From an uncultured Pelagibacteraceae bacterium (GTDB lineage Bacteria; Pseudomonadota; Alphaproteobacteria; Pelagibacterales; AG-422-B15), in assembly GCA_902525575.1 (NCBI GenBank), contig CABZHU010000001.1, forward strand, positions 51,376 to 115,375: 64,000 nucleotides of DNA, written 5' to 3'. The notes below the pieces were generated by a model. It was given only the letters and a program-made list of their open reading frames with translations. It did no database searches and had not been told where the DNA came from. The first letter of the stretch is position 1. Each line of letters opens with the position of its first letter. This document shows, piece by piece, positions 29,777 to 64,000 of the stretch. A program made the position numbers and the translations under genes.

Positions 29777-29785
29777 AATTTAATC

Positions 29786-50715: not shown

Positions 50716-51780
50716 ATGGATCCAAACCTAGATGCAAAAAAAGAAAAAGTTATCAATCTCATTAATAATCTAGATGATGGTAATTTTGCATTGTTGTTGC
50801 TAATTCACATCTCCAGGTATCAAAATTTATTTTTACATACAGAGCCTGATTGGGAAAACAGCCCAACCAATTGGTTAACAAAAAACAGACGACTGCAAGA
50901 TGAGTCTATCGGAGTTCTATCGTTCATCATTCTTTTTTCTCTTACCAATGCGCATGTGAATGAAGACCTTTTTCCTGAATTTAGAAAGCAAATCAAGGCA
51001 ATGCATCTTGATGACTTTTTGGATAATAATTTTTTTACTGGCCCATTTAATAAGTTTATTGAAAAAAAAATATCTCTAAAAGTTCTTGAAGCATTTTTTT
51101 CTATACCTCGTGAAAATATAAGACGATACCTAAAGTCTTTAATAGAGGCTGGATTTGTTAATAAAGATAAAAAGTATGGTTACCTTGTAAACATGGAGGC
51201 GTATGTTCAATATATATTTACTGATTCTCTTGGTAAAATTATGAAGTCGCTCATGAGAACATTCGATGACATTCTCTTAAATCTTGAAGACAAGTATCAA
51301 TGTAAATTAAATGTAAAACCCATCTCAACGATAAATTTAAAGACAGTAAAACCAGAAATCTGGAATCGAATTAGATTGCCCATGTATCTCTTTTGGGTAA
51401 GAGTTTTAACGCTAGAAGGTAATGATCCAACCTTAAGTCCTAATGATCGCGTTGTCTTGTCTGCATCGATCTATTTTAGGAAACACACTGGAATTTTAAA
51501 TTTCAATGATGTTGCAGAGCTATATGAAAATGGTTATCTCTTGCCGACAAATATTTCATCAATTTCTGAAGCTTCTAAAATGCCACGAGAAACTGTGAGG
51601 AGGTGTAGTAATAAATTAATAAAGATTGGACATTTAGAAAAAAGAGGACGTCAATTGTTTAGGATTAATTACGCTCGCAAAGATGGAGAGATAGCAACTT
51701 TTATCAAGAACAAAGCAGTAACAACACGTGATATGATGAATTTTTACTTTAGTATTTATGATGATCTAGCTCAGTCTTAA
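50716..51780 (+). CDS. Predicted DNA-binding protein with two winged-helix-like repeats
   Basis: 354 aa with an internal duplication. IPRENIRRYLKSLIEAGFVNKDKKYGYLV (about 51103-51190) and MPRETVRRCSNKLIKIGHLEKRGRQLFRI (about 51577-51665) both look like MarR/Crp-type recognition helix plus wing. Confidence 0.45.
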   Translation: MDPNLDAKKEKVINLINNLDDGNFALLLLIHISRYQNLFLHTEPDWENSPTNWLTKNRRLQDESIGVLSFIILFSLTNAHVNEDLFPEFRKQIKAMHLDDFLDNNFFTGPFNKFIEKKISLKVLEAFFSIPRENIRRYLKSLIEAGFVNKDKKYGYLVNMEAYVQYIFTDSLGKIMKSLMRTFDDILLNLEDKYQCKLNVKPISTINLKTVKPEIWNRIRLPMYLFWVRVLTLEGNDPTLSPNDRVVLSASIYFRKHTGILNFNDVAELYENGYLLPTNISSISEASKMPRETVRRCSNKLIKIGHLEKRGRQLFRINYARKDGEIATFIKNKAVTTRDMMNFYFSIYDDLAQS

Positions 51781-54548
51781 ATTGAGCACATTAATATAAT
51801 TTCTTCATTACATACTAGTTCAGCTTCAACAATGGAGCTATTTTGGGAACTTAATTGTGTATCGAGAGCTTCCAGCATAGACTTTGCTTCACCCGTTGGT
51901 ACTGGACCTACAATGACGGAATAGTCATTTTTGTCAAATTTATCGACATTGATGTCATATTTAAGGAATCTGCTGTCAAATCCCATTACATCATAAATGT
52001 AATTCATAAAACTGAATGCAGAATTACCACGCGTATAAGATCCGATTTTTATATAAACAAATTCAGCATCGCTGGTATCAATTATTAATTCAGTCTCTTC
52101 AATATCACTTGCTTGGGCACTAAAAGCATTTGATGCTACTTCCATTGGTTCTTCAATGAGTTGAGTTAAATCTTCTAACGCTTGAGATGCCTCTTCAGCT
52201 AATTTATTCTCTAATTCAGCAGTATTGTTCAATTCTGTAAGTAAATCTCTTGCAGTAGTTGCTTCTTCTACGAGGCTATTCTCATCAACTGTATTTAAGA
52301 TTTTCTTTTTTGGTAATATACCAACAGGATCTAAAGTTTCTTCACTATTGTCAACTGACACTTCGTCATCAAGTATTATTGGTTCACTCACTTGATTTTC
52401 TATTGCATTAATATCTGTAATGGCTTCTTCATTTTCAACTGAAGCATCATCTAGTATAGTTTGAGCTTTTTGAAGAGTGTTATCAACAGAGTCTAATAAA
52501 TCATTAAGACTATCAGCATCATTAATGATCATTTCATTCGAAATAGCAAATTCGTCTAAATCTATTTTTTGCTCATCATTAATTTCTAAATTTTCAGGAA
52601 TTTCTTCATTTGACTCTACGACTTCTCCATTAGATTCAACGTCATTTTCTACCGCGAGGTTGATAGCTTCTTTTCTATCTAAACCCAACTGGATAAGTTT
52701 TTGCCTTGCACCTTCGGCTTCTTGAGCGAGAAATTCACCCTCATCCATAAACTGAAGCGTGAATGTATCTTCAACAGAGACCAGCGCATTCGCAACTGAG
52801 ACTTTTAACTTTATCCCCGATACGTCATTGGGAGGATTGCCCACAAATGATAAATCAGACGTTAAAAAAGCAAGCCATCTGGGCAGAGGAGTCCCATCTT
52901 CTTGCATTGCTTGATAGCGTATTTTACCTGGCCCACTAATATTAAAAGTATTGTCAGAAATTTGAAATTTATTACTCGTTTGCTGCGTATTTATTGGATC
53001 ATTTATAATCAGAAGCATGGGACCTTGTTCGCTGATGGGAACATCTACTACTGCTTGATAAACTTCTCCCCACTCAGATAGATTGGTTTCAATATTTTTG
53101 CTCACATCGTCGATAGATAAATTTTGATGATTATCAGGAAGAATATCTTTTCCTATTGATGCGTAAATTTGACCGATACTGTGCTGCATTTCGGAAAATG
53201 CTAGATCTCGTCTGAGTTCTGCAACGAGTAAACTCGCTTCTTCCCGAATGACTTCAAGTTCGCCAAATCGAGAGACTTTTTGGGCATTTTGAACTTGTTT
53301 ACTGATCCTTTGTGCAACATCTAAGTATCTTTGTGCTGTATCATATTCTTCAATCGCGAGGGCATAATTCATATTTGAAAGATGAACTTGAGACAGTACT
53401 GTCATAGCTATCGCAAGGTGACGTTCTGCAATTAAATCTTTACTGGCTTTAGATGATTTTTTTACAGCCCCTAATGAAAACACGTTAAAAAGGTTAGCTC
53501 CAATGGATGCGCCGTATTCTGTTGAGTCTTGGTTCAACAAATATTGATTGCTTGAATAACCGTAAGTCGCATTAAATTTTATACTTGGAATCAGGCCTAA
53601 AATGGCGGCTCTTGTATCCTTGCCAGTAATCCTTTTTTGATATCGGCTTTCCATGAGTTCAGGTCTTGAGACAAGTGCAATTTCTTCCATCTTTTCAATG
53701 TTCATATTTATATTGGTCAGGTAACTGTCATCACTTGATAAGCTAAACTTTTGACCAGGCAGTAATCCCATGAGTATTGCAAGTTCATTTTTGGAATTGA
53801 TCAATGCACGTTGCTGCGTTTGTAGTGTTCTCTGTACATCAAGTAATTCTTTTTGATAAAGCAAAGAGTCCATAGGTGCAGATATAAGAAGTTCTTCAAT
53901 ATATTTTGAGTCAGCGAGAGCTTCTTCAACTCTCTCAAGAAGAGGATTCAATTTTTTTAGAAGATTTTCTGATGCTTGTGCTTTCCAATAAGCACGAATA
54001 ATATCACGAGCAATATTCTGAGTTGCTTTTCTCTCAAGCTCTTTAGCAATCAGATATCGATCTGCTTGCTGACCTGCTCTGATATAGGATAAACCAAAAT
54101 CGAGAGCATTCCATGTGAATTCAATATTTTTAGTTCTCAGTCCTCTATCACGAGAAACAGTATAACTTTGTGTTCCATCAAGATCAGGTGCAGGCTCACT
54201 ATCATTAGGAACTGTAATACTTGTTGAGGGTTGTAACTCAGTAAACTCTGAATAACCTGCATTGAGTGCAATATCAGGCAGCATATCAAATCGTTGAAGA
54301 TCATTTTGTCTTTGAGCTAATGCAGACTCCATAACACTTATTCTTAAGTCACGGTTGTTTTTAATACCAATAGCAATTGCCGTGTGCAGGTCTATGTTTT
54401 CAAGAGGTGCGTCAACTGCAAGCAATGATAGATCTTTTTGAACACTTACATTTAATTTTTCTGCATCGATAACATTCGGTGTTCGAGCGCAGGCGCTAAG
54501 TGCAATACATAGGCAAAATATAATAATTTTTGTACTAATCTTTTTCAT
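51777..54548 (-). CDS. TolC-like outer-membrane efflux lipoprotein with a 440-aa C-terminal extension (cadherin-like module, acidic linker, SPOR-like domain)
   Basis: Lipobox LSAC. Two OEP-type repeats occupy about nt 54470-53150. Next comes ...EDGTPLPRWLAF...VSGIKLKVSV..FTLQF (about 52972-52750), then a D/E/N-rich linker (about 52750-52075), then FVYIKIGSYTRGNSA....YSVIVGPVPTGEAKSMLEALD (about 52072-51860), which fits the SPOR pattern. Confidence 0.8.
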   Translation of the reverse strand: MKKISTKIIIFCLCIALSACARTPNVIDAEKLNVSVQKDLSLLAVDAPLENIDLHTAIAIGIKNNRDLRISVMESALAQRQNDLQRFDMLPDIALNAGYSEFTELQPSTSITVPNDSEPAPDLDGTQSYTVSRDRGLRTKNIEFTWNALDFGLSYIRAGQQADRYLIAKELERKATQNIARDIIRAYWKAQASENLLKKLNPLLERVEEALADSKYIEELLISAPMDSLLYQKELLDVQRTLQTQQRALINSKNELAILMGLLPGQKFSLSSDDSYLTNINMNIEKMEEIALVSRPELMESRYQKRITGKDTRAAILGLIPSIKFNATYGYSSNQYLLNQDSTEYGASIGANLFNVFSLGAVKKSSKASKDLIAERHLAIAMTVLSQVHLSNMNYALAIEEYDTAQRYLDVAQRISKQVQNAQKVSRFGELEVIREEASLLVAELRRDLAFSEMQHSIGQIYASIGKDILPDNHQNLSIDDVSKNIETNLSEWGEVYQAVVDVPISEQGPMLLIINDPINTQQTSNKFQISDNTFNISGPGKIRYQAMQEDGTPLPRWLAFLTSDLSFVGNPPNDVSGIKLKVSVANALVSVEDTFTLQFMDEGEFLAQEAEGARQKLIQLGLDRKEAINLAVENDVESNGEVVESNEEIPENLEINDEQKIDLDEFAISNEMIINDADSLNDLLDSVDNTLQKAQTILDDASVENEEAITDINAIENQVSEPIILDDEVSVDNSEETLDPVGILPKKKILNTVDENSLVEEATTARDLLTELNNTAELENKLAEEASQALEDLTQLIEEPMEVASNAFSAQASDIEETELIIDTSDAEFVYIKIGSYTRGNSAFSFMNYIYDVMGFDSRFLKYDINVDKFDKNDYSVIVGPVPTGEAKSMLEALDTQLSSQNSSIVEAELVCNEEIILMCSI

Positions 54549-54623
54549 TAATTAAGGATAAGCTTACTAGTATTTGTTAGTAGGGAATATAGACAAATGG
54601 CAGAAAACTTACAAAAAAATTTG

Positions 54624-54634
54624 CCCAAAATGGG
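54624..54634. promoter_or_regulatory. Inverted repeat CCCAAAATGGG in the divergent OMF / giant-protein promoter region
   Basis: Seen directly. It lies 76 nt from the OMF start and 99 nt from the giant-gene start. Confidence 0.25.
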
Positions 54635-54732
54635 TTATTTAGGCTTGTGAGAGTACCCTTACAATTTTAGTAATGTATAAAGAAAAGGCTAAATATCAAT
54701 AATTATGTTGGTTTGAAAAATTATATATAAAA

Positions 54733-57700
54733 ATGAGCAATAAACTTATTCAGGCTTTGGAACCTCGTCTTATGCTGGATGGTGCTGCAGTAGCAACGGC
54801 AATTGATGCGGTTGATGATTTAGCTCAGTTTCAAAAATCAGATAATGATAAATCATCTAAAGCTGATCACTTTAAAGTTGATAAAGATACAAAGTTACCT
54901 TTTGTAAATGTAGATGCATCATCTCAAAGTGCAAAATCAAGACAGATTATATTTATTGATAGTACAGTTGAAGATATTGAAACTCTGATTAACAGTTTTG
55001 ACAACAATACTGAAGTGCATGTCATACAAAGTGATCAAGATGGATTTGTTACCATGCAAAATATTTTATCATCTCAAGAAAATATCGATGCAGTTCACGT
55101 CATTGGTCACGGTAGTGTAGGACAGATTGCATTTGGTACAGCTGTATTGAACAGTGACACATTAAATGCTTATGAAAATATTCTCCAAGAGATTGGAGCT
55201 AGTCTTTCAGAGGACGGAGATATTTTATTTTATGGTTGTAACGTAGCTGCAGATCAAAGTGGTGAGATCTTAATCAAACAGATTGCAGACATCACGGATG
55301 CTGATGTTGCGGCATCAGATGACATTACTGGTAAAGGCGGGGATTGGGACCTTGAAAAACATACAGGAATTATTGAAACTGAAAATGTTTCAGTTGTAGG
55401 TTATCAATATGCCCTGACTAACGGCGTAACAGCAACTCAAAATGCTGTTGAAATACATAATTCAAATATGAATTTCATGGCTGGTGGTGGATCCTATAAT
55501 AATAACACTGGAGGTCAAACAGATCCAGGGGGAACCCGATACATCGTCACGCTTGAAAGAGATAATGTGACGACTGGAAGTAATTTGGTTTTTGATTACG
55601 CTGTAGCTTCATCGAGTCACGATCCAGACAATGATGGTGCTGTTAATGTTTATATGGTCTATCTCAATGACGACGTAAATAGAAGATCCTTAAACGATCG
55701 AGGTATTATAACGTTTGATAATGAAATTCTAGGTATTTTTACCACTCCAGAAAATACAATAGCAAAATCTGGATATGATATGTCCACTGGTACCTATCCT
55801 CTAACAACCGGATCTAAAAAAGTGCAGATGAGAGATTTAGAGTATCAAAATGATGGAGTACCCCCAGGTGTAATGGGATCAGGAGATGCTTTTACCGTAA
55901 CAGGTTCAAACAAAATTTTAACCATGGCTACTGATAATGGATTGAAGGGTGACTTCGTGAGGGTAGTAACAAGAGTAGCCTCTACAAATCAAGATCCTGT
56001 TGGTAATAACGACACAGGCGCTGTTAATGAAGATGCAAGTGTCTCAGTAAGTGCAGGTAGTGGTGTTTTGTCAAATGATACAGATGCTGATGGCGATACT
56101 TTAACAGTTGATGCTATTTCAGGAGGCTCTCTTGGATCAGCTCTGGATGGTAATTATGGACAACTGACTTTAAGTGGAGATGGAAGTTATACTTATAACG
56201 CAAATAAAGATCTAGCAGACCCTCTAGATCCAGGTGATACAGCAACGGACACATTTACTTATACGGTATCTGATGGAAACGGTGGAACAGATACAGCAAC
56301 GCTTACGATAACTATAACGGGAGTAAATGATCCAATAACAGCAATAAATGATACAGATGCAGTGAATGAAGATGCAACAATTAATCGAAGCACTTCAGAC
56401 TCCGAAGAACTTGATCATGACGATACTGATCCAGATGGTGATGACGTCTCTGGAAGCTTTACGATTACTGCAATTCGTACAGGCAGGGAAGGTGCAAGTG
56501 GAACCAGTGGTACGGTTGGACAGGCATTGACGGGAACGTATGGTGTGCTGACAGTTCAATCAGATGGAAGATATAGTTATGCGGCAACAACGAGTGGTGC
56601 AGATGGTTTAGCGCATGGCGTGACTGCTATAGATTATTTTACATATACAGTAAGAGATCACAGTGGTGGCGATACAGATACTGCTGAACTTGCAATTACA
56701 GTTACAGGAGTTGGACCAGTAGCAGCGAATGATACGGGTGCAGTTGACGAAAATGCTACGCTATCTAAAAACGCAGGTGCAGGCGTAATTGCAAACGATA
56801 CAAGTGGTGATACAGAAAGCCTTGCCGTTACAGCCATAAGAACTGAAGCAGAAGACTCAGGAAGTGGAACAAGTGGAACAGTGGGACAAGCCTTAACCGG
56901 TACTTATGGTGTGTTAACATTGGATGCTGATGGAAGTTACACATATATTGCCAATACTGCAGCTGCTGAAGCGTTAGATGATGGAGACAGTGTAACAGAT
57001 GTCTTTACTTATACTGTGGCAGATGATGATGATGCAAGTACAGACACGGGAACATTAACAATCACCATTACAGGAGTTGATGATGATCCGGTCGGCGTTA
57101 ACGATACTGGTGCTGTTAACGAGGATGCAACACTTGATGTTGACCAGGCAAGTAGCGGTGTTTTGTCAAATGATACTGATGCCGATACTGATGCAACTTT
57201 AACAGTTTCAGCAATTTCTGGCGGAACTGTAGGACAAGCAAAAAATGGCACATATGGTGCACTTACCTTAGCTTCTGATGGTACTTATACTTATGTAGCC
57301 AATCAAAGTGGGGCGGACGGCCTTGCTGCTGGAGCTACAGCAACAGATACATTTACTTATACCGTAAGTGATGATAACGGCGGAACCACTGATACAGCCA
57401 CTTTAACAATAACTGTTACGGGTATTGGACCTCAGGCTGTAAATGATACGGGAGCAGTTGATGAAGATGATACTCTAAATGTCAATGAAGCATCGGGCGT
57501 TATAAGTAATGATGATGATAATAGTAGTTTCGATAGTGAGAGTTTGGCAGTTACAGGAATACGAACAGGGACTGAGTCTGGAAGTGGATCTGCAGGCTCT
57601 ATTAATTCCGCACTAACAGGAATCTATGGTCAGTTAACCATTCAAGCAAACGGTAGTTATGCTTATGTTGCTAACCAAGCTGCAGCTGATGCTCTTGATC

Positions 57701-60700
57701 CAGGTGATACTGTTACGGATACATTTACTTACACTGTTAAAGATGATGATGATAAAAATGCTGACACCGGTGAACTCGTTATCACCATAACGGGTGTCAA
57801 TGATGATATTACAGCAGTAAATGATACAGATGCCGTAAATGCAAATAATACTATTTCACGAAGTACATCAGATACTCAAGAACTTGATCACGATGATACA
57901 GACCCTGATGCTGATGATGTATCGGGATCGTTTGAGATTACAGCAATCCGAACTGGAGCAAGTGAAGGCGCTGGAACCGCAAAGACTATTGGTCAAGCAT
58001 TCACTACCACATATGGAACCATGACAGTGAATGCTAATGGATCATATACTTATGCCGCTGATCAAAGCGGATCGACTAATTTAAGCAATGGAGTTACCGC
58101 AACTGATAGCTTCAATTACACGGTTCGAGACCACAATAGTGGTGATACTGATATTGCAACTTTAGTTATCACAATTACTGGAAGAGTTGATCCAGTTCCC
58201 TCAGCTAGTGATGATGCTGGTTACATTAATGAAGACGCTACATTAACTGTCACAGATGGTACCAGTGCTAATGACAGTACTCCTGATGCTACTGGTGAAC
58301 ACACGGGTGATGTTCTGTTAAACGATACGCATTCTGGCGGTGATTCATTAACTGTTGTTGACATTTCAAATGGTTCAGTCGACAGCGCTGCTACAGGAAC
58401 ATTTGGTCAATTAACAATTGCTGCGAATGGTAGCTACACGTATGTTGCCAATCAAAGTGCAGCTGATGCCCTTGATTCTGGTGATACTGGAACGGATATA
58501 TTTACTTACACAGTTGAAGACGAAAATGGAGACCAAGATACAGCAACAATTACATTTACTGTTGCAGGTTTGAATGATCCCATAACAGCAGTAAATGATA
58601 CTGATTCAGTAAATGAAGATGCAACAATAAACCGAAGCACTTCAGATACGCAGGAACTTGATCATGACGATACCGACCCAGATGGTGATGATGCATCTGG
58701 AAGCTTTACCATAACAGCAATCAGAACGGGCAGAGAAGGTGCGAGTGGAACCAGTGGTACGGTTGGACAAGCGCTTACTGGTACGTATGGTGTGTTAACT
58801 GTTGCTGCGGATGGCGGTTATAGTTATGCAGCGACAACAAGTGGTGCAGATGGATTAGCTCATGGAGCAACAGCTATTGATTACTTCACCTACACAGTCA
58901 GAGATCACAGTGGTGGTGTCACTGATACGGCTGAACTCGCAATTACAGTTACAGGAGTTGGACCAGTAGCAGCGAATGATACGGGAGCAGTTAATGAAGA
59001 TGCTACGTTATCTGTAAATGCCGGTTCTGGAGTTACATCAAACGATACGAGTGGTGATACTGAAAGCCTAGCGGTCACAGCAATTAGAACAGGCGCTGAA
59101 ACAGGCAGTGGATCATCTGGTACTGTTGGTCAATCATTAACAGGTACTTACGGCACACTGACTATGAATGCCGATGGAAGCTATACATATGTGGCTGATC
59201 AAGCTGCAGCTGATGCTCTTGATCCAAGCGAAACTGTGACAGATACATTCACTTACACAGTGGCAGACGATAATGACGCTAGTACAGATACTGGTGAGAT
59301 TGTAATAACAGTTACTGGTACAAATGACGATATTGTTGCCGTAAATGATACCGATGCAGTGAATGAAGATGCCACCATCAGTCGATCAACGAGTGATACG
59401 CAGGAACTGGACCATGATGATACAGATGTTGACGGCGATGATGTTTCAGGATCATTTACAATTACTGCGATCAGAACAGGTTCAGAAAGTGGCTCAGGTA
59501 ATTCAGGTACAATTGGGCAAGCATTAACAGGTACATACGGTACACTTACAGTTAATGCTGATGGATCATATACATACGTGGCTGATCAAAATGCAGCTGA
59601 CAGCATTGTAACTGGGCAGACAGCAACAGATACATTTACCTATACGGTTCGAGATCACAACAGTGGATCCACAGATACAGCAGAGCTCTCCTTTACTGTA
59701 ACAGGTATTAACGATGAAAATCCTGTGGCAGTTGATGATACGGATACTGTTCCAAAAGGTGAAACAATTACGAGAGCAGCTGATACAACGTCTGCACTTA
59801 ATGCAGACGATACTGATGCAGATGGTGAGTCGTTAACAATTTCTGCAATTAGAGTAGGACAAACTGAAGGTGGCGGTGCATCAGGTACACTCGGCAATGC
59901 ACTTGTTGGAACGTATGGTACGCTTACACTTAATGCTGATGGAAGTTACAGCTATGTTGCTGATCAGGCAGCTGCAGATGCATTAAAACGTGGCCAAAGT
60001 GCAATAGAGTACTTCAACTACACAGTAACTGATGGAACAAATGAGGACATTGGTGTGCTTGCAATTACTGTTACCGGTAAGAGTGATCCTCCCGTACCGG
60101 ATGACGACATACTTGCAATCGATGCAGGTGCGACAGGTGTAAAAGATGCCTCCAAAGGTGTATTAAACAATGATACAGATCCCGATGGTGACAGCTTAAC
60201 TGTAAATACGATACGAACAGGTGAGGAAACTGGCACTGGGACATCTGGATCAATTGGATCACCTCTTACAGGAGCGTATGGGGATTTAACAATTAACGCC
60301 GACGGCAGCTATGAATACAAGGCTAATAATGCGAAAGCATTAAACCCAGGAGTAATAGCAACTGAATACTTTACGTATACCGCAACGGATGGAGAAACTC
60401 CTGTAGAAGCTCAAATTGCCGTGACTGTGACAGGTAAAAATGACCCACCTCAAGTTTTATACCCTGTTCAAGATCCAAATACAATTACAGGTGCAACAAT
60501 CATTATCAAACACAAACAAATTTTTGATGATCCAGATACAGGTATTTATGACATCGCAGAATATAAGATTATTGACCCTGAAGATGGCACAGAAGTAAGT
60601 CTTCCCGATGGACTAAGATTAAAACAAAATAAGATTCATGGATCCATTAGTACACCTGGAATATATTCGATAACGATAAGAGCCATTGATGGTGAAGGGC

Positions 60701-61824
60701 TTTATGCAGATCATACATTCACAATCACAGTAAACCCTGCGCCAGGAGAAATAGTTGAAAAGGAAACTACCGATGAAGAAATACCATCCAATTATGATAC
60801 AGTTGTCATTAAACCAAAGAAAGATTATTTAGCTGCATTACAAGAATTTAATGAGGGTTCATTATCTATAACAGATGATGGCTTTAATTTGGATACTATA
60901 TCAATTGCTGATACTGCATCCCTTTCAAAACCCCTAAAATTCAATGGAGGTTTGAGATTGATGGATGCTGTCGCCAATGAAACATCTGGCAATGAAGAAT
61001 CCGATTTATCAGTAGGTATTAAATTAAATGATGATAACCAGAAAAATGTTGAACTATATTCAGGAAAACTCTCTGATGGGAAAGCCTTGCCTGAGTGGAT
61101 ACAAGTCAATCCTGAAACAGGAGAAACAACTGCCGATATGCCTGAGGGAGTTCAAGAGGTTGAAGTACAGCTTGTTGCGCTGGATAAAGACGGAAACACA
61201 AGAGATATTAATATTGTGCTAGATAAGGCAAAAATTAAAAATGACCAAGACTTTACTAGAGGTACAGTTGGTGAAACTAGGGTTGTTGTTGATAACGATG
61301 CAAATGTAAATCTTATTCGTAAAACTGATGGAAGAACAAATCAAGTTGCGTCAAATAATTTAAATGCTGAAACTGATTTCCTAGGAACCATGAAACTGAG
61401 TGATATTCAAGTTGATGCAGGCAAGTATACGTTGGATGTTATCGATGACAATCAATCGAATGTAAAATTGTATAAAGCTGAGATGAAAGATGGAAGCTCT
61501 TTGCCAGAATGGATTACCATTGATCCTGAAACAGGAGCCATCTCAGCAGACCCATCAATAGGACGAACGGGTTCTGCAGCCCCAGCATTTTTAACAAATA
61601 GTCTTCAAGTCCTTGAGTTAAAAATTATTGCTGAAGATGAAGATGGTAAAGAGAGAATAATTGAAGTTGATATTAATCTTGATGAAATTGCTACTCCGTC
61701 TGCAACTGAAGAGCAAGCTGAGGAAACTGATGAAGTTTCGTTTATTCCTCTTGATGAACAACTTAGGGTACAGTCTCAGAAAATAGATAATTATGGCGAA
61801 AAAATTATTAGTCTTGTAAGCTAA
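54733..61824 (+). CDS. Giant (2363 aa) secreted repeat protein: N-terminal LEPRLMLDGAA motif, DUF4347, unknown beta-rich domain, 12 VCBS/cadherin-like repeats, 3 dystroglycan-type cadherin-like modules, acidic C-terminus
   Basis: A single uninterrupted 7.1-kb ORF. The DUF4347-like block is IIFIDSTVED...VHVIGHGSVGQIAFG...ILFYGCNVAA..G...IADITDADVAASDD (about 54941-55365). Repeats have the form NDTGAVNEDATL..SNDTDADGDTLTV...G.YG.LTL..DGSYTY.A......L..G...TDTFTYTV.D..G..DTA.LTITVTG. No GGxGxD nonapeptides. Confidence 0.9.
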   Translation: MSNKLIQALEPRLMLDGAAVATAIDAVDDLAQFQKSDNDKSSKADHFKVDKDTKLPFVNVDASSQSAKSRQIIFIDSTVEDIETLINSFDNNTEVHVIQSDQDGFVTMQNILSSQENIDAVHVIGHGSVGQIAFGTAVLNSDTLNAYENILQEIGASLSEDGDILFYGCNVAADQSGEILIKQIADITDADVAASDDITGKGGDWDLEKHTGIIETENVSVVGYQYALTNGVTATQNAVEIHNSNMNFMAGGGSYNNNTGGQTDPGGTRYIVTLERDNVTTGSNLVFDYAVASSSHDPDNDGAVNVYMVYLNDDVNRRSLNDRGIITFDNEILGIFTTPENTIAKSGYDMSTGTYPLTTGSKKVQMRDLEYQNDGVPPGVMGSGDAFTVTGSNKILTMATDNGLKGDFVRVVTRVASTNQDPVGNNDTGAVNEDASVSVSAGSGVLSNDTDADGDTLTVDAISGGSLGSALDGNYGQLTLSGDGSYTYNANKDLADPLDPGDTATDTFTYTVSDGNGGTDTATLTITITGVNDPITAINDTDAVNEDATINRSTSDSEELDHDDTDPDGDDVSGSFTITAIRTGREGASGTSGTVGQALTGTYGVLTVQSDGRYSYAATTSGADGLAHGVTAIDYFTYTVRDHSGGDTDTAELAITVTGVGPVAANDTGAVDENATLSKNAGAGVIANDTSGDTESLAVTAIRTEAEDSGSGTSGTVGQALTGTYGVLTLDADGSYTYIANTAAAEALDDGDSVTDVFTYTVADDDDASTDTGTLTITITGVDDDPVGVNDTGAVNEDATLDVDQASSGVLSNDTDADTDATLTVSAISGGTVGQAKNGTYGALTLASDGTYTYVANQSGADGLAAGATATDTFTYTVSDDNGGTTDTATLTITVTGIGPQAVNDTGAVDEDDTLNVNEASGVISNDDDNSSFDSESLAVTGIRTGTESGSGSAGSINSALTGIYGQLTIQANGSYAYVANQAAADALDPGDTVTDTFTYTVKDDDDKNADTGELVITITGVNDDITAVNDTDAVNANNTISRSTSDTQELDHDDTDPDADDVSGSFEITAIRTGASEGAGTAKTIGQAFTTTYGTMTVNANGSYTYAADQSGSTNLSNGVTATDSFNYTVRDHNSGDTDIATLVITITGRVDPVPSASDDAGYINEDATLTVTDGTSANDSTPDATGEHTGDVLLNDTHSGGDSLTVVDISNGSVDSAATGTFGQLTIAANGSYTYVANQSAADALDSGDTGTDIFTYTVEDENGDQDTATITFTVAGLNDPITAVNDTDSVNEDATINRSTSDTQELDHDDTDPDGDDASGSFTITAIRTGREGASGTSGTVGQALTGTYGVLTVAADGGYSYAATTSGADGLAHGATAIDYFTYTVRDHSGGVTDTAELAITVTGVGPVAANDTGAVNEDATLSVNAGSGVTSNDTSGDTESLAVTAIRTGAETGSGSSGTVGQSLTGTYGTLTMNADGSYTYVADQAAADALDPSETVTDTFTYTVADDNDASTDTGEIVITVTGTNDDIVAVNDTDAVNEDATISRSTSDTQELDHDDTDVDGDDVSGSFTITAIRTGSESGSGNSGTIGQALTGTYGTLTVNADGSYTYVADQNAADSIVTGQTATDTFTYTVRDHNSGSTDTAELSFTVTGINDENPVAVDDTDTVPKGETITRAADTTSALNADDTDADGESLTISAIRVGQTEGGGASGTLGNALVGTYGTLTLNADGSYSYVADQAAADALKRGQSAIEYFNYTVTDGTNEDIGVLAITVTGKSDPPVPDDDILAIDAGATGVKDASKGVLNNDTDPDGDSLTVNTIRTGEETGTGTSGSIGSPLTGAYGDLTINADGSYEYKANNAKALNPGVIATEYFTYTATDGETPVEAQIAVTVTGKNDPPQVLYPVQDPNTITGATIIIKHKQIFDDPDTGIYDIAEYKIIDPEDGTEVSLPDGLRLKQNKIHGSISTPGIYSITIRAIDGEGLYADHTFTITVNPAPGEIVEKETTDEEIPSNYDTVVIKPKKDYLAALQEFNEGSLSITDDGFNLDTISIADTASLSKPLKFNGGLRLMDAVANETSGNEESDLSVGIKLNDDNQKNVELYSGKLSDGKALPEWIQVNPETGETTADMPEGVQEVEVQLVALDKDGNTRDINIVLDKAKIKNDQDFTRGTVGETRVVVDNDANVNLIRKTDGRTNQVASNNLNAETDFLGTMKLSDIQVDAGKYTLDVIDDNQSNVKLYKAEMKDGSSLPEWITIDPETGAISADPSIGRTGSAAPAFLTNSLQVLELKIIAEDEDGKERIIEVDINLDEIATPSATEEQAEETDEVSFIPLDEQLRVQSQKIDNYGEKIISLVS
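55993..60435 (+). repeat. Twelve tandem coding repeats of about 360-390 nt (VCBS-type) in three sequence subtypes, including a higher-order duplication
   Basis: Repeat boundaries were read from the recurring ...T(I/V)TG(V/I/T/K)(N/D/G)D... junctions. Units 2-3 (56323..57075) and 8-9 (58570..59319) align at an offset of 2247 nt and share a 47-nt identical run (56692..56738 = 58939..58985). Confidence 0.85.
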
Positions 61825-61836
61825 TTCTATAAATAA

Positions 61837-62556
61837 ATGAATAAAGTTAAAATATCGTTAGCAGCGTTTTGCTTTCTTTTTATATCTTTTGAGGCACTAG
61901 CTGAAGAAAGATCAACACGTATTTTAGTTACTGCAACTGAAGAGGCGACTTTATCAAGTGAAATTGCAGCAAAAATAATCTCTATTCCTATAAAAGTAGG
62001 AAATAACTTTAGTAAATCAGATATTTTAATTGAATTTGACTGCTCTTTTTTTGAAGCCCAAAAAGATGTTGTTCAAGCAGAACTTGATGGTGCTAGGGTA
62101 ACTTTAAAAAGCAATCAAGAGCTTGCTGCGATGAGATCTATTGGAGAGTACGAAGTTCAACTATCTCAAATAGCAGTTGATCGAGCACAATCAGAATTAA
62201 ATATTGCGGAACTCAACACTGATCGTTGTATTATTCGAGCACCCTATGACGGAGTTATGTCCAAAGTTTTTGTAAATGAGTACGAAAGTATTGAAAGGCA
62301 ACAGCCATTGATTGAAATTATTGGGTCAGGCACATTGGAAGCAAAACTTATGATATCAAGTAAATGGCTATCATGGTTATCTGAAGGATACCCTCTAAGT
62401 ATAGTTATTGATGAGAATGGCTTAGAGTATAGTGCACAAATACATTCTTTGGGTGCAGATATAGATCCGGTAAGTCAGACGATTGATGCTACCGCACAAT
62501 TTGATGAAAATTATGAAACATTACTTCCAGGAATGAGTGGGACAGCAACGTTTTGA
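61837..62556 (+). CDS. Small periplasmic adaptor (membrane-fusion/HlyD_D23-like) protein with signal peptide
   Basis: 239 aa. Signal peptide ...SFEALAEE, a lipoyl-like hairpin (ATLSSEIAAKIISIPIKVGNNFSKSDILIEFD...IIRAPYDGVMSKVFVNEYESI) and a coiled-coil between the two halves. Confidence 0.6.
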   Translation: MNKVKISLAAFCFLFISFEALAEERSTRILVTATEEATLSSEIAAKIISIPIKVGNNFSKSDILIEFDCSFFEAQKDVVQAELDGARVTLKSNQELAAMRSIGEYEVQLSQIAVDRAQSELNIAELNTDRCIIRAPYDGVMSKVFVNEYESIERQQPLIEIIGSGTLEAKLMISSKWLSWLSEGYPLSIVIDENGLEYSAQIHSLGADIDPVSQTIDATAQFDENYETLLPGMSGTATF

Positions 62557-63896
62557 ATGATAATTCTTCAATAAAAATTGCACGACTAATTACACTTGAA
62601 AAAAAGTTTCGTAACGCTGAAAGTGAAACAGAACTTGGTTTTATTTGTGCTAACGAATTACGGAGTATAGTTGACTATAATTTCTTATTTCTTCTCAACA
62701 GATCAAGCATAAACCGGCTTAAAGTGAATACTATTTCTGATTTATCAGTCATTGATAGAACTGCTCCAACCGTTACTTTTATTGAGGGATTACTTAATAA
62801 GAAAGGAATGATCAATAGTGATGAAGTATCTGCAATCAGTCTTCAATCCCTTAATTTAGATAAATTAAATCTAAGCATTCCTGAAAATTTTCCAAATCAT
62901 TTAGTTTTTGTTCCTTTGTCTTCACGAATAGAAAAAAATATTGGTTACTTAGTTCTTGTAAGAACAGAACCAGTTACAAGTTCAGAAAAAGATTTATTAT
63001 TGCACATCTCTGAAAGCTTTAGTCACGCGCTTACTGCTTTCGGTAAAAAAAAATCATTATTAACAAGTATCAGTCGCATATTTTCAGGATGGGTAAAGTG
63101 GCTAGTGATTGCATCTATAACTGTGGTGATGTTCTTTCCTATCAGCATGTCAGCTCTCGCACCAGTAGAAGTGGTTGCGAAAGATCCAACGATTGTCACA
63201 TCACCCGTGAATGGAGTTGTTGAAAAAGTTTTAATTAAGACCAATGAAAATGTAAAACCAGGCACAGAACTAGTTAAACTGGACGATTTAAATTTTAAAA
63301 ATCAGTATGAAATTGCACTTCAGACACTTGAAGTAGCTGAAGCCGAGCTGTTAAGAGTCAAACAGTCATCATTTTCAAATGAAGATGACAAAGCACGCCT
63401 GGTTGAGCTTTCAACTGAAGTAGGTTTAAGAAAAAAAGAAGCCACTTATGCAGAAGAGCAGCTGAAATACTCAATTATTTCTGCTGAGCGAGAGGGTATT
63501 GCAGTAGTTGAAGACTTTACTGATTGGCAAGGGAGACCTGTTACCATTGGTGAAAAAATATTAACCATAGCTGATCCTCAACAAATTGAATTTGAAATCT
63601 TCTTGCCTACTAAAGACTCTCTTTTGATCAAGAAGGAAGCCAGAGTAAAAGTTTTTTTAGATAGTGACCCTCTCAATTCTTTAGACGGTAAGGTATTGCG
63701 TACTTCATATAAGCCTGCGCTTACATCTGAGAATATTTTAGCTTATCAGATTTTTGCAAAATTAGATGGAAACCAAGGAGAAGTACCAAGAATAGGTTTA
63801 CGAGGCACAGCAAAAATTTATGGAGAAAAAACAAGTATTTTTTACTACATATTCCGTGTTCCAATAAATCTTACGAGACAATTTTTAGGTTTTTAG
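62553..63896 (+). CDS. HlyD-family adaptor with N-terminal cytoplasmic GAF-like domain and one TM
   Basis: 447 aa. Residues 1-170 are soluble, ending ..IGYLVLVRTEPVTSSEKDLLLHISESFSHAL (GAF-like). TM segment WVKWLVIASITVVMFFPI. Then SPVNGVVEKVLIKTNENVKPGTELVKLDD, a coiled-coil, and IISAEREGIAVV...GRPVTIGEKILTI (MFP lipoyl and beta-barrel parts). 4-nt overlap with the upstream adaptor gene. Confidence 0.7.
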   Translation: MNDNSSIKIARLITLEKKFRNAESETELGFICANELRSIVDYNFLFLLNRSSINRLKVNTISDLSVIDRTAPTVTFIEGLLNKKGMINSDEVSAISLQSLNLDKLNLSIPENFPNHLVFVPLSSRIEKNIGYLVLVRTEPVTSSEKDLLLHISESFSHALTAFGKKKSLLTSISRIFSGWVKWLVIASITVVMFFPISMSALAPVEVVAKDPTIVTSPVNGVVEKVLIKTNENVKPGTELVKLDDLNFKNQYEIALQTLEVAEAELLRVKQSSFSNEDDKARLVELSTEVGLRKKEATYAEEQLKYSIISAEREGIAVVEDFTDWQGRPVTIGEKILTIADPQQIEFEIFLPTKDSLLIKKEARVKVFLDSDPLNSLDGKVLRTSYKPALTSENILAYQIFAKLDGNQGEVPRIGLRGTAKIYGEKTSIFYYIFRVPINLTRQFLGF

Positions 63897-63897
63897 A

Positions 63898-64000
63898 TGA
63901 CTGTTCCATACTTAAGACAAGATTTGAAATTGAGTGAGGGTCCCAAAAAAGAGGATGGCTCTTCATCGTGGCTACTTTATGACTCTTTAAGAAATAAATA
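63898..64000 (+). CDS. 5' end (34 codons) of an ORF resembling HlyD-associated M50/site-2-protease-family membrane proteins
   Basis: Hand translation: MTVPYLRQDLKLSEGPKKEDGSSSWLLYDSLRNK. The pattern P-LR-DL-L..GP...DG...W.LYD..RN matches my recollection of the N-termini of M50-type proteins encoded next to paired HlyD genes. It starts 2 nt after the previous stop and is truncated by the window end. Confidence 0.35.

What the first reader, a model, noticed from the sequence alone, without database searches (positions are those of the whole stretch)
54733..61824. A 7.1-kb DUF4347/VCBS giant surface protein without RTX repeats in a streamlined genome
Seen in sequence: one ORF takes up 11 percent of this window. 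Its architecture runs as follows:
- an N-terminal LEPRLMLDGAA motif and a DUF4347-like domain;
- an unassigned roughly 190-aa domain;
- 12 repeats of about 120 aa rich in D-x-D-x-D-G-D-type acidic clusters (NDTDADGDTLTV, DHDDTDPDGDDVSG);
- three modules with L-P-(D/E)-(G/W) motifs;
- an acidic C-terminus (…EEQAEETDEVSFIPLDEQL…LVS).

Established knowledge: VCBS and cadherin-like repeats are Ca-binding extender modules of bacterial adhesins, and DUF4347 heads many giant T1SS-type substrates.

Inference: this is a calcium-rigidified filamentous surface protein. It is a costly investment for an organism whose other genes are compacted to overlapping stop codons, which argues for strong selection such as particle or host attachment, phage decoy or grazing defence.
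Basis: partly seen in the sequence, partly recalled or inferred. Interest (0 to 1): 0.6.

Follow-up and report, generated by a model that had tools for sequence, protein, structure and literature searches.

The report
Giant SAR11 surface protein, unusual exporter
The 7.1-kb gene is real and encodes a 2,363-residue, very acidic, calcium-type repeat protein of the abundant ocean bacterium SAR11. It always sits beside a conserved outer-membrane channel, two adaptor proteins and a membrane metalloprotease, not the usual ATP-driven exporter, which points to an undescribed way of putting giant proteins on a cell surface.

Summary
The ORF is 54733..61824 (+), 2,363 aa. It has an N-terminal LEPR motif, DUF4347, an unassigned roughly 200-aa beta-rich domain, exactly 12 VCBS/cadherin-like repeats, three He_PIG modules and an acidic tail. 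There are no RTX repeats.

The organism is SAR11 (Pelagibacteraceae).

New findings:
1. The gene belongs to a five-gene cassette: TolC-like lipoprotein with a He_PIG extension, giant, adaptor 1, adaptor 2, and an M50 metalloprotease fused to a HlyD domain. All 80 related loci carry the cassette core, including gammaproteobacteria. No ABC exporter is seen next to it.
2. DUF4347 models as a caspase/CPD-like cysteine protease. Its His126/Cys169 align with the proposed dyad of P. aeruginosa Tce1, and Cys169 is the protein's only cysteine.
3. The repeats are homologous to the Ca2+-stiffened AhLap extender (PDB 6XI1), and most Ca ligands are kept.
4. A conserved C-terminal tail motif marks the giant next to the cassette in all 80 loci where its C-terminus is held.
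5. Repeat number is fixed at 12 in 25 other species-level genomes, although the repeat arrays are mosaic alleles. Other SAR11 lineages carry 1,366 to 9,101 aa versions.

"T1SS-type" is only partly supported. How the protein is exported and what it does remain inferred.

The parts
51777..54548 (-). TolC/NodT-like outer-membrane factor, 923 aa. It has a lipoprotein signal (..LSAC), OEP repeats at aa 54-480, then a 440-aa C-terminal extension: a He_PIG Ig-like domain (aa 515-599), an acidic linker and an unassigned terminal domain.
   Evidence: Pfam OEP 9.4e-35 and He_PIG 1.6e-06. Sequence. N-terminal hydrophobic segment aa 3-21. A TolC_N+TolC_C ORF is found wherever the upstream DNA is held: divergent in the SAR11 loci, on the same strand in L082 and downstream in L076.
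54549..54732 (.). 184-bp divergent intergenic region between the TolC-like gene and the giant gene, presumed to hold the promoters.
   Evidence: Sequence. The consensus promoter scan found no more sites than shuffled sequence, so no promoter is claimed.
54733..61824 (+). Giant protein gene, 2363 aa.
54748..54807 (+). LEPR-XLL N-terminal motif (aa 6-25, ..ALEPRLMLDGAAVATA..).
   Evidence: NCBIfam NF012209 scores 16.8 bits against a cutoff of 17. The motif ALE(P/Q)R[LIMV]MLDGA is kept in every complete orthologue, including Marinobacterium. It also accompanies DUF4347 in proteins with no cassette nearby.
54946..55386 (+). DUF4347 domain (aa 72-218), a clan-CD (CPD/caspase-like) cysteine-protease-type fold. 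The candidate dyad is His126 (55108-55110) and Cys169 (55237-55239).
   Evidence: Pfam 8.8e-49. Y167-G168-C169 is invariant, and H122, H126 and G127 are at least 90% conserved in 50 diverse sequences. AlphaFold2 pLDDT is above 90 over this domain. Foldseek gives Tce1 9qpe_G at E 5e-5, then caspase-3/-7 and legumain. A profile alignment puts His126/Cys169 on Tce1 His186/Cys240.
55408..56007 (+). Unassigned beta-rich domain (aa 226-425). It exists as at least two allelic classes about 45% identical.
   Evidence: No Pfam hit at E<=5. AlphaFold2 predicts beta strands with pLDDT of roughly 55-90. Its identity is uncoupled from the flanking genes: L016 has 88% here with MFP2 at 68%, while L008 has 47% here with MFP2 at 82%.
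56008..60447 (+). Twelve VCBS/bacterial-cadherin-like extender repeats (aa 426-1905), net charge -209.
   Evidence: Repeat boundaries. Alignment and identities. Homology to the AhLap tetra-tandemer 6XI1, E 5.5e-34. Ca-ligand positions. Charge.
60448..61740 (+). C-terminal region with three He_PIG (dystroglycan-type Ig-like) modules carrying LPDG or LPEW motifs (aa 1906-2336).
   Evidence: He_PIG, 3 stretches, 2.7e-14. Modules 2 and 3 are conserved in the SAR11 and other alphaproteobacterial loci of the sample (L076, L078, L080), and module 3 also in the gammaproteobacterial versions.
61741..61821 (+). Conserved C-terminal tail, FIPLDEQLRVQSQKIDNYGEKIISLVS (aa 2337-2363). Candidate cassette-specific export or sorting signal.
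   Evidence: The motif F-x-x-[LF]-x-x-[QLA]-[LI]-x(6-11)-[DENQ]-x-Y-G lies 7-11 residues from the C-terminal end in 78 of 80 giants that sit upstream of the cassette. The other two have Y in place of F.
61837..62556 (+). Periplasmic adaptor 1 (MFP1, 239 aa) with an N-terminal signal peptide. It starts 13 nt after the giant gene's stop codon.
   Evidence: HlyD_3 8.8e-15 and RND_mfp 1.5e-28. Hydrophobic segment aa 4-22. Present in the SAR11 and other alphaproteobacterial loci and in L082 wherever that position is held, but not detected in five gammaproteobacterial loci, L073, L074, L075, L077 and L079.
62553..63896 (+). Adaptor 2 (MFP2, 447 aa, TTG start overlapping the MFP1 stop). It has an unassigned cytoplasmic domain of about 180 aa, one transmembrane helix (aa 184-202) and a HlyD-type periplasmic part.
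   Evidence: HlyD_3 8.4e-14. Profile hits to EmrA, MacA, MexA and LipC. Transmembrane helix. 520 homologues at E<=1e-5. Relatives in 302 species-level genomes.
63898..64000 (+). First 34 codons of the M50-HlyD fusion gene, cut by the end of the window. The full protein is 701 aa in relatives.
   Evidence: The window sequence MTVPYLRQDLKLSEGPKKEDGSSSWLLYDSLRNK is identical to the start of the 701-aa product in L001. That protein has Peptidase_M50, HlyD_3 and daptide_HExxH at 2e-37. HELGH and NxxPxxxxDG are conserved across 75 distinct sequences, with each catalytic residue invariant.

Best explanation
What the protein is. The gene encodes a native SAR11 extracellular or cell-surface filament.
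- SHOWN by homology: a rod of 12 Ca2+-binding beta-sandwich extender repeats, carrying Ig-like (He_PIG) modules at the C-terminal end.
- SHOWN at the level of fold and motifs, activity not shown: a head made of the LEPR-XLL motif plus a CPD/caspase-like cysteine-protease-type domain (DUF4347).

How it gets out.
- SHOWN: it has no Sec signal.
- INFERRED from strict gene linkage across Alpha- and Gammaproteobacteria: it is exported in one step through a dedicated envelope-spanning apparatus encoded around it. The parts are a TolC-like lipoprotein channel, a soluble adaptor (MFP1), a membrane-anchored adaptor with a cytoplasmic domain (MFP2), and an inner-membrane M50 (site-2-protease type) zinc metalloprotease fused to a third HlyD-type adaptor domain.
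- The layout is like a type I system, but the ABC exporter is replaced by, or at least never linked to, the cassette.

Most likely sequence of events (INFERRED):
1. The conserved C-terminal tail (F-x-P-L-x-x-Q-L...Y-G) is the cassette-specific recognition signal. It is engaged by a cytoplasmic domain of MFP2 or of the M50 fusion, and it leads export C-terminus first.
2. The extenders fold and stiffen with seawater Ca2+ outside the cell.
3. The N-terminal head is the last part out. It acts as a stopper or processing module: the M50 protease and/or the DUF4347 Cys/His site trim or release the protein.

Selection.
- In the window's lineage, selection holds the array at exactly 12 repeats, a fixed reach of several tens of nm by analogy with solved extenders.
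- At the same time the repeat block and the unassigned domain are swapped between lineages as divergent alleles. That is the pattern expected of an exposed molecule under pressure from phages, grazers or ligand diversity.
For: Protein features:
- ORF and domains.
- No hydrophobic segment, net charge -291.
- No RTX motif.

Extender repeats:
- Homology to AhLap 6XI1, E 5.5e-34.
- Ca-ligand columns kept: Asp220 in 12/12 repeats, Glu143 in 9/12, acidic at Gln202 in 10/12, ND or DD linker in 7/12.

Cassette:
- Present in the window.
- All 80 genome loci carry MFP2 (the search anchor), and 79 hold the M50 fusion (L052 ends first). All but L036, L054 and L081, whose contigs start inside or just before the adaptor genes, hold a giant gene next to them. 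The TolC-like gene is seen wherever the DNA extends that far. Taxa include Marinobacterium, Halopseudomonas and Rhodobiaceae.
- No ABC transporter within about 20 kb in the Marinobacterium versions. None among the ten large ORFs of the window that I annotated.
- M50 catalytic motifs conserved.
- M50 fusion architecture.
- MFP topology.

Termini:
- Tail motif in 78/80 giants, plus 2 conservative variants.
- DUF4347 fold and dyad.

Evolution:
- Native codon usage, and dN/dS of about 0.05 between the duplicated repeats R2 and R8.
- 12 repeats and 2328-2390 aa in 25 other species-level genomes.
- Mosaic alleles with loss of positional orthology.
Against: - No energy-coupling component was identified. 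A 250-kDa polypeptide crossing the inner membrane without an ATPase has no precedent. A T1SS-type ABC exporter could be encoded elsewhere in the genome, and I could not scan whole SAR11 genomes.
- Surface location, Ca2+ binding, protease activity and expression are all untested.
- The idea that the N-terminal domain of the M50 fusion is a PqqD/RRE-type peptide-binding domain is weakly supported: WgkC at E 1e-3 below cutoff, Pfam PqqD in 2 of 23 members with best E 0.077, nothing in the PDB profile search, and AlphaFold2 pLDDT below 50 in that region.
- The LEPR motif is not specific to the cassette, so it cannot be assigned to the M50 protease.
- SAR11 is a free-living plankter, so a classical adhesin role is not obvious.
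Confidence: 0.55

Rival explanations
1. It is an ordinary type I secretion substrate. The giant protein is exported by a canonical ABC/HlyD/TolC system whose ABC gene lies elsewhere in the genome. The linked M50-HlyD protein and the extra adaptors only process, anchor or regulate it.
For: - The layout (OMF plus MFPs next to a giant acidic repeat protein with no Sec signal) is T1SS-like.
- The extender repeats are homologous to those of an RTX adhesin.
- Some DUF4347 proteins elsewhere do carry RTX repeats (P0225 with PF00353).
- M50 proteases are not known to be translocases (established knowledge).
Against: - No RTX repeats and no T1SS C-terminal domain model hit.
- No ABC gene in the cassette in any of 80 loci across two proteobacterial classes. 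That includes large genomes, where nothing forces the genes apart.
- The three adaptor-type proteins and the OMF are tightly linked with the M50 gene, with overlaps or 1-13-nt spacers.
Confidence: 0.25
2. It is a released toxin-like or effector-like protein, similar to MARTX or TcdB. The CPD-like DUF4347 domain is the business end. It would be activated in a eukaryotic grazer or host to self-process or to cleave targets, and the repeats only serve delivery.
For: - DUF4347 shares its fold and dyad with Tce1/Tce2. The authors compare these to the TcdB and MARTX cysteine protease domains, and Tce2 is toxic to yeast through its Cys.
- The single conserved Cys.
Against: - No recognisable effector or pore-forming domains.
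- More than 60% of the protein is extender repeats with adhesin-type Ca sites.
- The repeat number is fixed, which suggests a structural length constraint.
- A protease head is equally consistent with self-release of a tethered filament.
Confidence: 0.1
3. It is an envelope or periplasm-associated structural protein, or a phage-receptor decoy shed into the water, rather than an adhesin. The cassette's main product is a protective coat or a shed decoy.
For: - Mosaic, recombining alleles of the repeat block and of the unassigned domain.
- Extreme length polymorphism between SAR11 lineages, 1,366 to 9,101 aa.
- SAR11 is free-living (established knowledge).
Against: - Nothing here separates this reading from a ligand-binding filament.
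- No phage or receptor data.
- Ig-like terminal modules are typical of binding proteins.
Confidence: 0.1

Closest known systems
RTX 'long adhesion proteins' exported by T1SS (AhLap, MhLap, MpIBP, LapA, SiiE)
   Same: - Giant, very acidic protein with no Sec signal.
- Tandem beta-sandwich extenders. The repeats here are sequence homologues of the AhLap extenders (6XI1, E 5.5e-34), and most of the three-calcium ligand set is kept.
- Encoded next to a TolC-type channel and HlyD-type adaptors.
   Different: - No RTX nonapeptides.
- No ABC exporter in the locus.
- No LapG/LapD partners seen.
- The head is LEPR-XLL plus DUF4347, not a LapA-type retention module.
- The C-terminal tail is a conserved sequence motif.
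- Three adaptor-type proteins, one of them fused to an M50 protease.
Clan CD cysteine protease domains: P. aeruginosa T6SS cargo Tce1 (PA0256, a DUF4347 protein; PDB 9qpe), and by the authors' comparison the CPDs of TcdB and MARTX
   Same: - Best Foldseek hit, followed by caspases and legumain.
- His126/Cys169 align with the proposed Tce1 dyad His186/Cys240.
- The Cys is invariant across 50 diverse DUF4347 proteins.
   Different: - Here the domain heads a 2,363-aa repeat protein next to a TolC/MFP/M50 cassette. It is not a 310-aa cargo carried in an Hcp ring.
- No protease activity has been shown for any DUF4347 domain. Tce1 itself was inactive in the yeast assay.
RiPP leader peptidases of the M50 family (NCBIfam 'daptide biosynthesis intramembrane metalloprotease'), and in logic the peptidase-containing ABC exporters (PCATs) that cleave a leader during export
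   Same: - Residues 23-390 of the fusion match the daptide HExxH protease model at 2e-37.
- Intact HExxH and NxxPxxxxDG motifs.
- A protease physically joined to export-type parts.
   Different: - The score (129 bits) is far below the family cutoff of 300, so it is not a member.
- It is fused to a HlyD-type periplasmic domain.
- The linked substrate is a giant protein, not a small peptide.
- There is no ATPase domain.
Classical tripartite T1SS or efflux assemblies (HlyBD-TolC, MacAB-TolC, EmrAB-TolC)
   Same: - OMF with two OEP repeats.
- Adaptors with lipoyl, beta-barrel and alpha-hairpin parts.
   Different: - No ABC, RND or MFS inner-membrane transporter gene in the cassette.
- The OMF carries a 440-aa C-terminal extension in SAR11. 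In Marinobacterium a second OMF of 872-875 aa with an AMIN domain lies just downstream of the cassette.

Membership tests
DUF4347 (PF14252) | Match to the Pfam model above the gathering score | tested here: met
   165.8 bits against a cutoff of 24.6, aa 72-218.
LEPR-XLL domain proteins (NCBIfam NF012209) | N-terminal ~24-aa LEPRxLL signature above the model cutoff | tested here: inconclusive
   16.8 bits against a cutoff of 17 for the window protein. The Marinobacterium cassette homologue passes at 17.6. The motif ALEPRLMLDGA is plainly present and conserved.
VCBS / bacterial cadherin-like extender repeats (TIGR01965, PF17803, PF17963) | Tandem matches above cutoff | tested here: met
   12 VCBS stretches (376.7 bits), 13 Cadherin_4 and 12 Big_9. 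An own repeat HMM gives 12 units.
Ca2+-rigidified adhesin extenders (AhLap type, PDB 6XI1) | Conservation of the inter-domain Ca2+ ligands (Glu143, Asp144, Asp160/162, Gln202, Asp220, Asn234-Asp235) | tested here: met
   Asp220 in 12/12 repeats. Glu143 in 9/12. Asp144 as D in 8 repeats and N in 2. Acidic at Gln202 in 10/12. ND or DD linker in 7/12, with GP in 3. The DxDG loop is aligned by HMMER. Actual Ca2+ binding cannot be tested here.
RTX adhesins / RTX proteins | C-terminal GGxGxDxUx nonapeptide repeats | tested here: not met
   No GGxGxD anywhere in the 2363 aa. No HemolysinCabind hit.
Type I secretion system substrate | Dedicated ABC exporter (HlyB type) with MFP and OMF | tested here: not met
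   MFP and OMF are present, but there is no ABC gene in the cassette in the window or in any related locus, nor within about 20 kb in Marinobacterium. An ABC gene elsewhere in the genome could not be excluded.
LapA-type retained adhesins | N-terminal retention module with a LapG di-alanine site, plus LapG/LapD partners | not tested
   No LapG- or LapD-like gene among the annotated neighbours. The 'GAAV' within the LEPR motif is 'GAGA' in other SAR11 lineages, so it is not a conserved di-alanine site. No specific model was run.
Clan CD cysteine peptidases (C80 CPD / caspase-like) | Caspase-hemoglobinase fold with His then Cys after consecutive central strands | tested here: met
   AlphaFold2 pLDDT above 90. 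Foldseek gives Tce1 at 5e-5, caspase-3 at 8.5e-4 and legumain at 1.4e-3. H126-G127 follows strand 118-124, and C169 follows strand 158-167. The Cys is invariant.
Clan CD cysteine peptidases (C80 CPD / caspase-like) | Proteolytic or autoprocessing activity | not testable with these tools
   No activity has been shown for any DUF4347 domain. Tce1 was inactive in yeast, and Tce2 toxicity depended on its Cys.
Peptidase M50 / site-2 protease (the downstream fusion protein) | HExxH and NxxPxxxxDG zinc-binding motifs in transmembrane segments | tested here: met
   HELGH at 195-199 and NISPFMRFDGYY at 288-299, with each catalytic residue invariant in 75 distinct sequences. Pfam 38.3 bits against a cutoff of 27.2. 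The window itself holds only codons 1-34, which are identical to L001.
PqqD/RRE leader-peptide-binding domains (N-terminus of the M50 fusion) | Match to PqqD-type models, or a winged-helix beta3-alpha3 fold | tested here: inconclusive
   WgkC at E 1e-3, 19 bits against a cutoff of 110. Pfam PqqD in 2 of 23 members, best E 0.077. No PDB hit. AlphaFold2 pLDDT below 50 for residues 1-40 and 88-125.

The most novel reading that the evidence does not exclude
The five-gene cassette would be a previously unrecognised envelope-spanning secretion system. Its parts are a TolC-like lipoprotein with a periplasmic extension, two HlyD-type adaptors, and an M50 metalloprotease fused to a HlyD domain. It would be independent of any ABC transporter and dedicated to giant LEPR-XLL/DUF4347 proteins, which it would recognise by a conserved C-terminal tail motif and process with a membrane metalloprotease and/or a built-in caspase-like domain. 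It would be near-universal in the sampled SAR11 lineages, where it exports filaments of 1,366 to 9,101 aa (up to about 2% of the genome), and it would also occur in Gammaproteobacteria.
Probability: 0.35. Interest if true: 0.85.

Novelty: new variant of a known kind. Interest (0 to 1): 0.65.

Why it matters
SAR11 is the most abundant bacterial lineage in the ocean and the textbook case of genome streamlining.
- Here it keeps a cassette of about 14 kb, roughly 1.1% of a 1.3-Mb genome.
- In other lineages the giant gene alone reaches 27 kb.
- The cassette makes and exports one giant Ca2+-type filament. Its length is held fixed while its sequence is shuffled between lineages.
- That implies an important and so far unstudied surface function for a supposedly smooth, free-living cell. 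Candidates are interaction with phages or grazers, contact with particles or other cells, or nutrient capture.

Mechanistically, the strict linkage of giant non-RTX proteins to a TolC/adaptor/M50-protease set with no ATPase would extend the known range of Gram-negative secretion systems if confirmed. It would also give a function to DUF4347, to LEPR-XLL and to thousands of "site-2 protease family" annotations in marine metagenomes. The gammaproteobacterial versions (Marinobacterium, Halopseudomonas) make this testable by genetics.

Tried and rejected
- Recent slippage or an assembly artefact of the repeats. Rejected: Tandem Repeats Finder finds nothing, DNA identity is 50-83%, and dS is 0.92 between the closest pair.
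- Horizontal acquisition suggested by the GC bump. Rejected: GC3 equals that of the neighbours.
- The LEPR-XLL motif as the cassette-specific leader for the M50 protease. Weakened: the motif travels with DUF4347 even where no cassette is nearby.
- A PqqD/RRE domain at the N-terminus of the M50 fusion. Not established.
- A SPOR domain at the C-terminus of the TolC-like protein, which I suspected by eye. No Pfam support even at E<=5.
- Pfam on the unassigned domain and on the MFP2 N-terminal domain. No hits.
- Representative-library search with the last 140 aa. It was swamped by generic He_PIG repeat proteins and says little about the tail.
- The 354-aa helix-turn-helix-like ORF next to the TolC-like gene as a cassette regulator. 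It is not conserved next to the cassette.
- Promoter and terminator scan. Uninformative.
- Exact-sequence look-up of the window's MFP1. Not on record.
- Literature searches for DUF4347, LEPR-XLL, M50+HlyD, a SAR11 giant protein, SAR11+VCBS and daptide+metalloprotease. They found no description of this cassette or of the SAR11 protein. The library is partial, so this is not proof of novelty.
- I did not run a fold search on the low-confidence M50 model.


Full report
OBSERVATION

Every listed feature checks out.
- The LEPR motif lies at aa 10-20. NCBIfam LEPR-XLL scores 16.8 bits against a cutoff of 17.
- DUF4347 covers aa 72-218, E 8.8e-49.
- An unassigned stretch at aa 226-425 has no Pfam hit even at E<=5.
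- Twelve repeats of 109-125 aa span aa 426-1905. I delimited them with an HMM built from the first repeat. They score as VCBS, Cadherin_4 and Big_9.
- Three He_PIG modules follow, and then an acidic tail.
- No GGxGxD motif occurs anywhere.

The protein has no hydrophobic segment, so it has neither a Sec signal nor a membrane anchor. Its net charge is -291 and it contains a single cysteine.

The repeats are old.
- Tandem Repeats Finder sees nothing, and pairwise DNA identity is 50-83%.
- The closest pair, R2 and R8, is 93% identical in protein but has dS 0.92 and dN 0.048.

The GC bump over the gene comes from first and second codon positions. GC3 is 0.22, the same as in the neighbouring genes, so the gene is native.

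ORGANISM AND LOCUS

The genes around the ORF form a secretion-type cassette.
- Upstream and divergent is a 923-aa TolC/NodT-like lipoprotein. After its OEP repeats it carries a 440-aa extension with a He_PIG domain and an acidic linker.
- Thirteen nucleotides after the giant gene's stop comes a 239-aa HlyD-type adaptor with a signal peptide (MFP1).
- Overlapping its stop is a 447-aa adaptor (MFP2). It has a cytoplasmic domain of about 180 aa of unknown type and one transmembrane helix.
- One nucleotide after the MFP2 stop a further gene begins, which the window end cuts off.

Close relatives of MFP2 (96% identity) lie in Pelagibacteraceae single-cell genomes. In those genomes the cut gene encodes a 701-aa protein whose first 34 residues are identical to the window's. 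That protein has three parts:
- an M50/site-2-protease membrane domain, with HELGH and NISPFMRFDGYY conserved and each catalytic residue invariant in 75 distinct sequences;
- one further transmembrane helix;
- a HlyD-type periplasmic domain with a long alpha-hairpin.

No ABC transporter is present in the cassette.

CONSERVATION OF THE CASSETTE

I anchored a search of one genome per species on MFP2. It found relatives in 302 genomes, and the best 80 loci were fetched.
- All 80 loci carry MFP2, and 79 hold the M50 fusion (L052 ends first). All but L036, L054 and L081, whose contigs start inside or just before the adaptor genes, also hold a giant gene next to MFP2.
- MFP1 is present in the SAR11 and other alphaproteobacterial loci and in L082 wherever that position is held. 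It is not detected in five gammaproteobacterial loci: L073, L074, L075, L077 and L079.
- Wherever the DNA reaches far enough, a TolC-like gene with a He_PIG extension lies divergently upstream.
- The carriers include cultured Pelagibacter strains, a Rhodobiaceae genome and two unclassified alphaproteobacterial genomes, and the gammaproteobacteria Marinobacterium and Halopseudomonas.
- In Marinobacterium the order is OMF-MFP1-giant-MFP2-M50. A two-component system, IalB, a second OMF with an AMIN domain and a second DUF4347 giant gene follow. Again there is no ABC gene within about 20 kb.
- The flanking genes differ between SAR11 lineages: urease, peptidase S9, or photolyase and glnA. The five genes therefore travel as a unit.
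- Public sources name the M50 fusion only "site-2 protease family protein" or "putative peptide zinc metalloprotease".
- I found no paper describing the cassette, LEPR-XLL, or a SAR11 giant protein.

THE HEAD

In 50 diverse DUF4347 proteins, Y167-G168-C169 is invariant and H122, H126 and G127 are nearly so. Cys169 is the only cysteine in the protein. A single cysteine is also found in all 25 complete 12-repeat orthologues.

AlphaFold2 models the domain with pLDDT above 90. In the Foldseek search of the PDB:
- the best match is chain G of 9qpe, the P. aeruginosa T6SS cargo Tce1, itself deposited as a DUF4347 protein (E 5e-5);
- caspase-3, caspase-7 and legumain follow.

A profile alignment puts our His126 and Cys169 on Tce1 His186 and Cys240. 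The authors propose that pair as a catalytic dyad by comparison with the TcdB and MARTX cysteine protease domains (PMC13323088). DUF4347 is therefore a clan-CD, CPD/caspase-like domain. No activity has yet been shown for it.

The LEPR motif lies about 84-198 residues upstream of the His-Gly in most DUF4347 proteins. That holds even for proteins with no TolC or M50 neighbours. LEPR plus DUF4347 is thus a general head module, not a feature specific to this cassette.

THE ROD

The repeats match the Aeromonas hydrophila long adhesion protein tetra-tandemer (PDB 6XI1) at E 5.5e-34 over four stretches. In that structure three Ca2+ ions per domain interface stiffen the rod (PMC7493085).

I mapped the published ligands onto the 12 repeats:
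- Asp220 is kept in 12/12.
- Glu143 is kept in 9/12.
- Asp144 is D in 8 repeats and N in 2.
- The Gln202 position is acidic in 10/12.
- The Asn-Asp linker is ND or DD in 7/12.
- The D-x-D-G loop is present.

Binding itself is untested.

THE TAIL

Downstream of the He_PIG modules, 78 of 80 cassette-linked giants end with F-x-x-[LF]-x-x-[QLA]-[LI]-x(6-11)-[DENQ]-x-Y-G, placed 7-11 residues from the C-terminal end. The other two have Y in place of F. The motif is kept from SAR11 to Gammaproteobacteria even where the repeats are unrelated. It is the one feature of the giant that tracks the cassette, so it is my candidate for the export or sorting signal.

POPULATION PATTERN

- In 25 other species-level genomes of the window's lineage (MFP2 at least 67% identical), the protein always has 12 repeats and 2,328-2,390 aa.
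- The repeat block falls into divergent allelic classes. Some genomes keep position-by-position orthology at 85-99%. Others, with nearly identical flanking genes, share only about 55-65% and lose positional orthology.
- The unassigned domain also has at least two classes, about 45% identical, distributed independently of the flanks.
- Other SAR11 lineages carry between 4 and at least 15 repeats, and proteins of 1,366 aa and upward. Two long-read contigs with an identical M50 protein have called giants of 6,339 and 9,101 aa.
- Length is thus tightly held within one lineage and very different between lineages, while sequence is exchanged. This is the behaviour of an exposed molecule under diversifying pressure.

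MECHANISM (INFERRED)

The protein has no Sec signal and sits in a conserved channel-and-adaptor neighbourhood. I therefore think it leaves the cell in one step through the cassette's TolC-like channel.
1. The C-terminal tail is recognised on the cytoplasmic side, by the unassigned MFP2 domain or by the N-terminal domain of the M50 fusion.
2. The rod folds with Ca2+ outside the cell.
3. The LEPR/DUF4347 head comes last and is trimmed, or used for release, by the M50 protease and/or its own Cys/His site.

The weakest point is energy. No ATPase or other motor is linked, and I could not scan whole genomes for an orphan ABC exporter. The attractive idea that the N-terminus of the M50 fusion is a PqqD/RRE-type peptide-binding domain remains unproven. 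It matches the N-terminal part of the daptide leader-peptidase model (2e-37 overall), but specific PqqD evidence is weak and the AlphaFold2 model is poor.

VERDICT

The Ca2+-extender reading is supported by homology. The "T1SS-type" label is only partly right.

The protein itself is a new member of the giant non-RTX VCBS/cadherin-like class. Its export cassette looks like an undescribed variant of tripartite secretion. The SAR11 setting, with fixed length, mosaic alleles and up to 2% of the genome in one gene, makes it worth following up.

Noticed in passing
window 51777-53108 (- strand; aa 481-923 of the TolC-like protein): The outer-membrane factor carries a 440-aa C-terminal extension: a He_PIG domain, a long acidic low-complexity linker, and a terminal domain of about 100 aa (..FVYIKIGSYTRGNSAF..VIVGPVPTGEAKSMLEAL..). 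By eye the terminal domain resembles a SPOR-type peptidoglycan-binding fold, but Pfam gives no hit. In Marinobacterium a second OMF just downstream of the cassette instead carries an AMIN domain (L082 16891-19515, L079 7232-9847). OMFs associated with these loci seem to acquire wall-associated domains repeatedly.
   Followed up: partly
L085 1-7944 and L086 1-7944 (long-read SAR11 contigs of 458 kb and 1.23 Mb): Two contigs encode an identical M50 fusion protein but have called giant genes of 6,339 and 9,101 aa. That is a very large length polymorphism within one close lineage, and up to about 2.2% of a 1.23-Mb contig in one gene.
   Followed up: partly
L042 5604-9265 (Candidatus Pelagibacter sp. 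Uisw_116, complete genome): The giant gene is split into two overlapping ORFs (800 aa and 456 aa) in different frames. This is either a frameshifted, possibly decaying copy in a cultured strain or a sequencing error. L050 shows a similar split in the M50 gene.
   Followed up: no
window 58210-58581 (repeat R7, aa 1160-1283): Repeat 7 has a 15-residue insertion (..TSANDSTPDATGEHT..). It has no positional orthologue above 56% even in genomes whose other eleven repeats are 85-99% identical to the window's. This is a single replaced or fast-evolving unit inside a conserved array.
   Followed up: partly
L001, L006, L007, L009, L012, L017, L019, L022, L030 and others (locus starts): Many single-cell and metagenome contigs begin or end inside the giant gene, and gene callers often start it at the internal Met of the LEPR motif (MLDGAG..). 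The gene is therefore systematically fragmented and mis-started in public data. That may be why it has escaped notice.
   Followed up: partly
window 50716-51780 (+): A 354-aa ORF with two weak helix-turn-helix matches (TrmB/IclR type) converges on the TolC-like gene, and their ends overlap by 4 nt. It is not conserved next to the cassette in other lineages; only weak relatives occur in L038 and L039.
   Followed up: yes
window 45861-47519 (-): A 552-aa ORF with no Pfam match at E<=0.001 and no relative in any fetched locus.
   Followed up: no
window 27504-31111 (-): A glycoside hydrolase family 1 gene lies close to an MFS_2 sugar transporter, with a 343-aa ORF that I did not annotate between them (28745-29776). 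This looks like a small sugar-use module in an otherwise housekeeping stretch that also holds acyl-CoA dehydrogenases, a thiolase, lysyl-tRNA synthetase and TrkH.
   Followed up: no
L082 19527-21005 and L079 9859-14472: Marinobacterium genomes carry a second DUF4347-headed giant gene a few kb downstream of the cassette, after a 7TMR-DISM sensor kinase with a response regulator (annotated in L082), IalB and a second OMF. One apparatus may serve two substrates, under two-component control.
   Followed up: no
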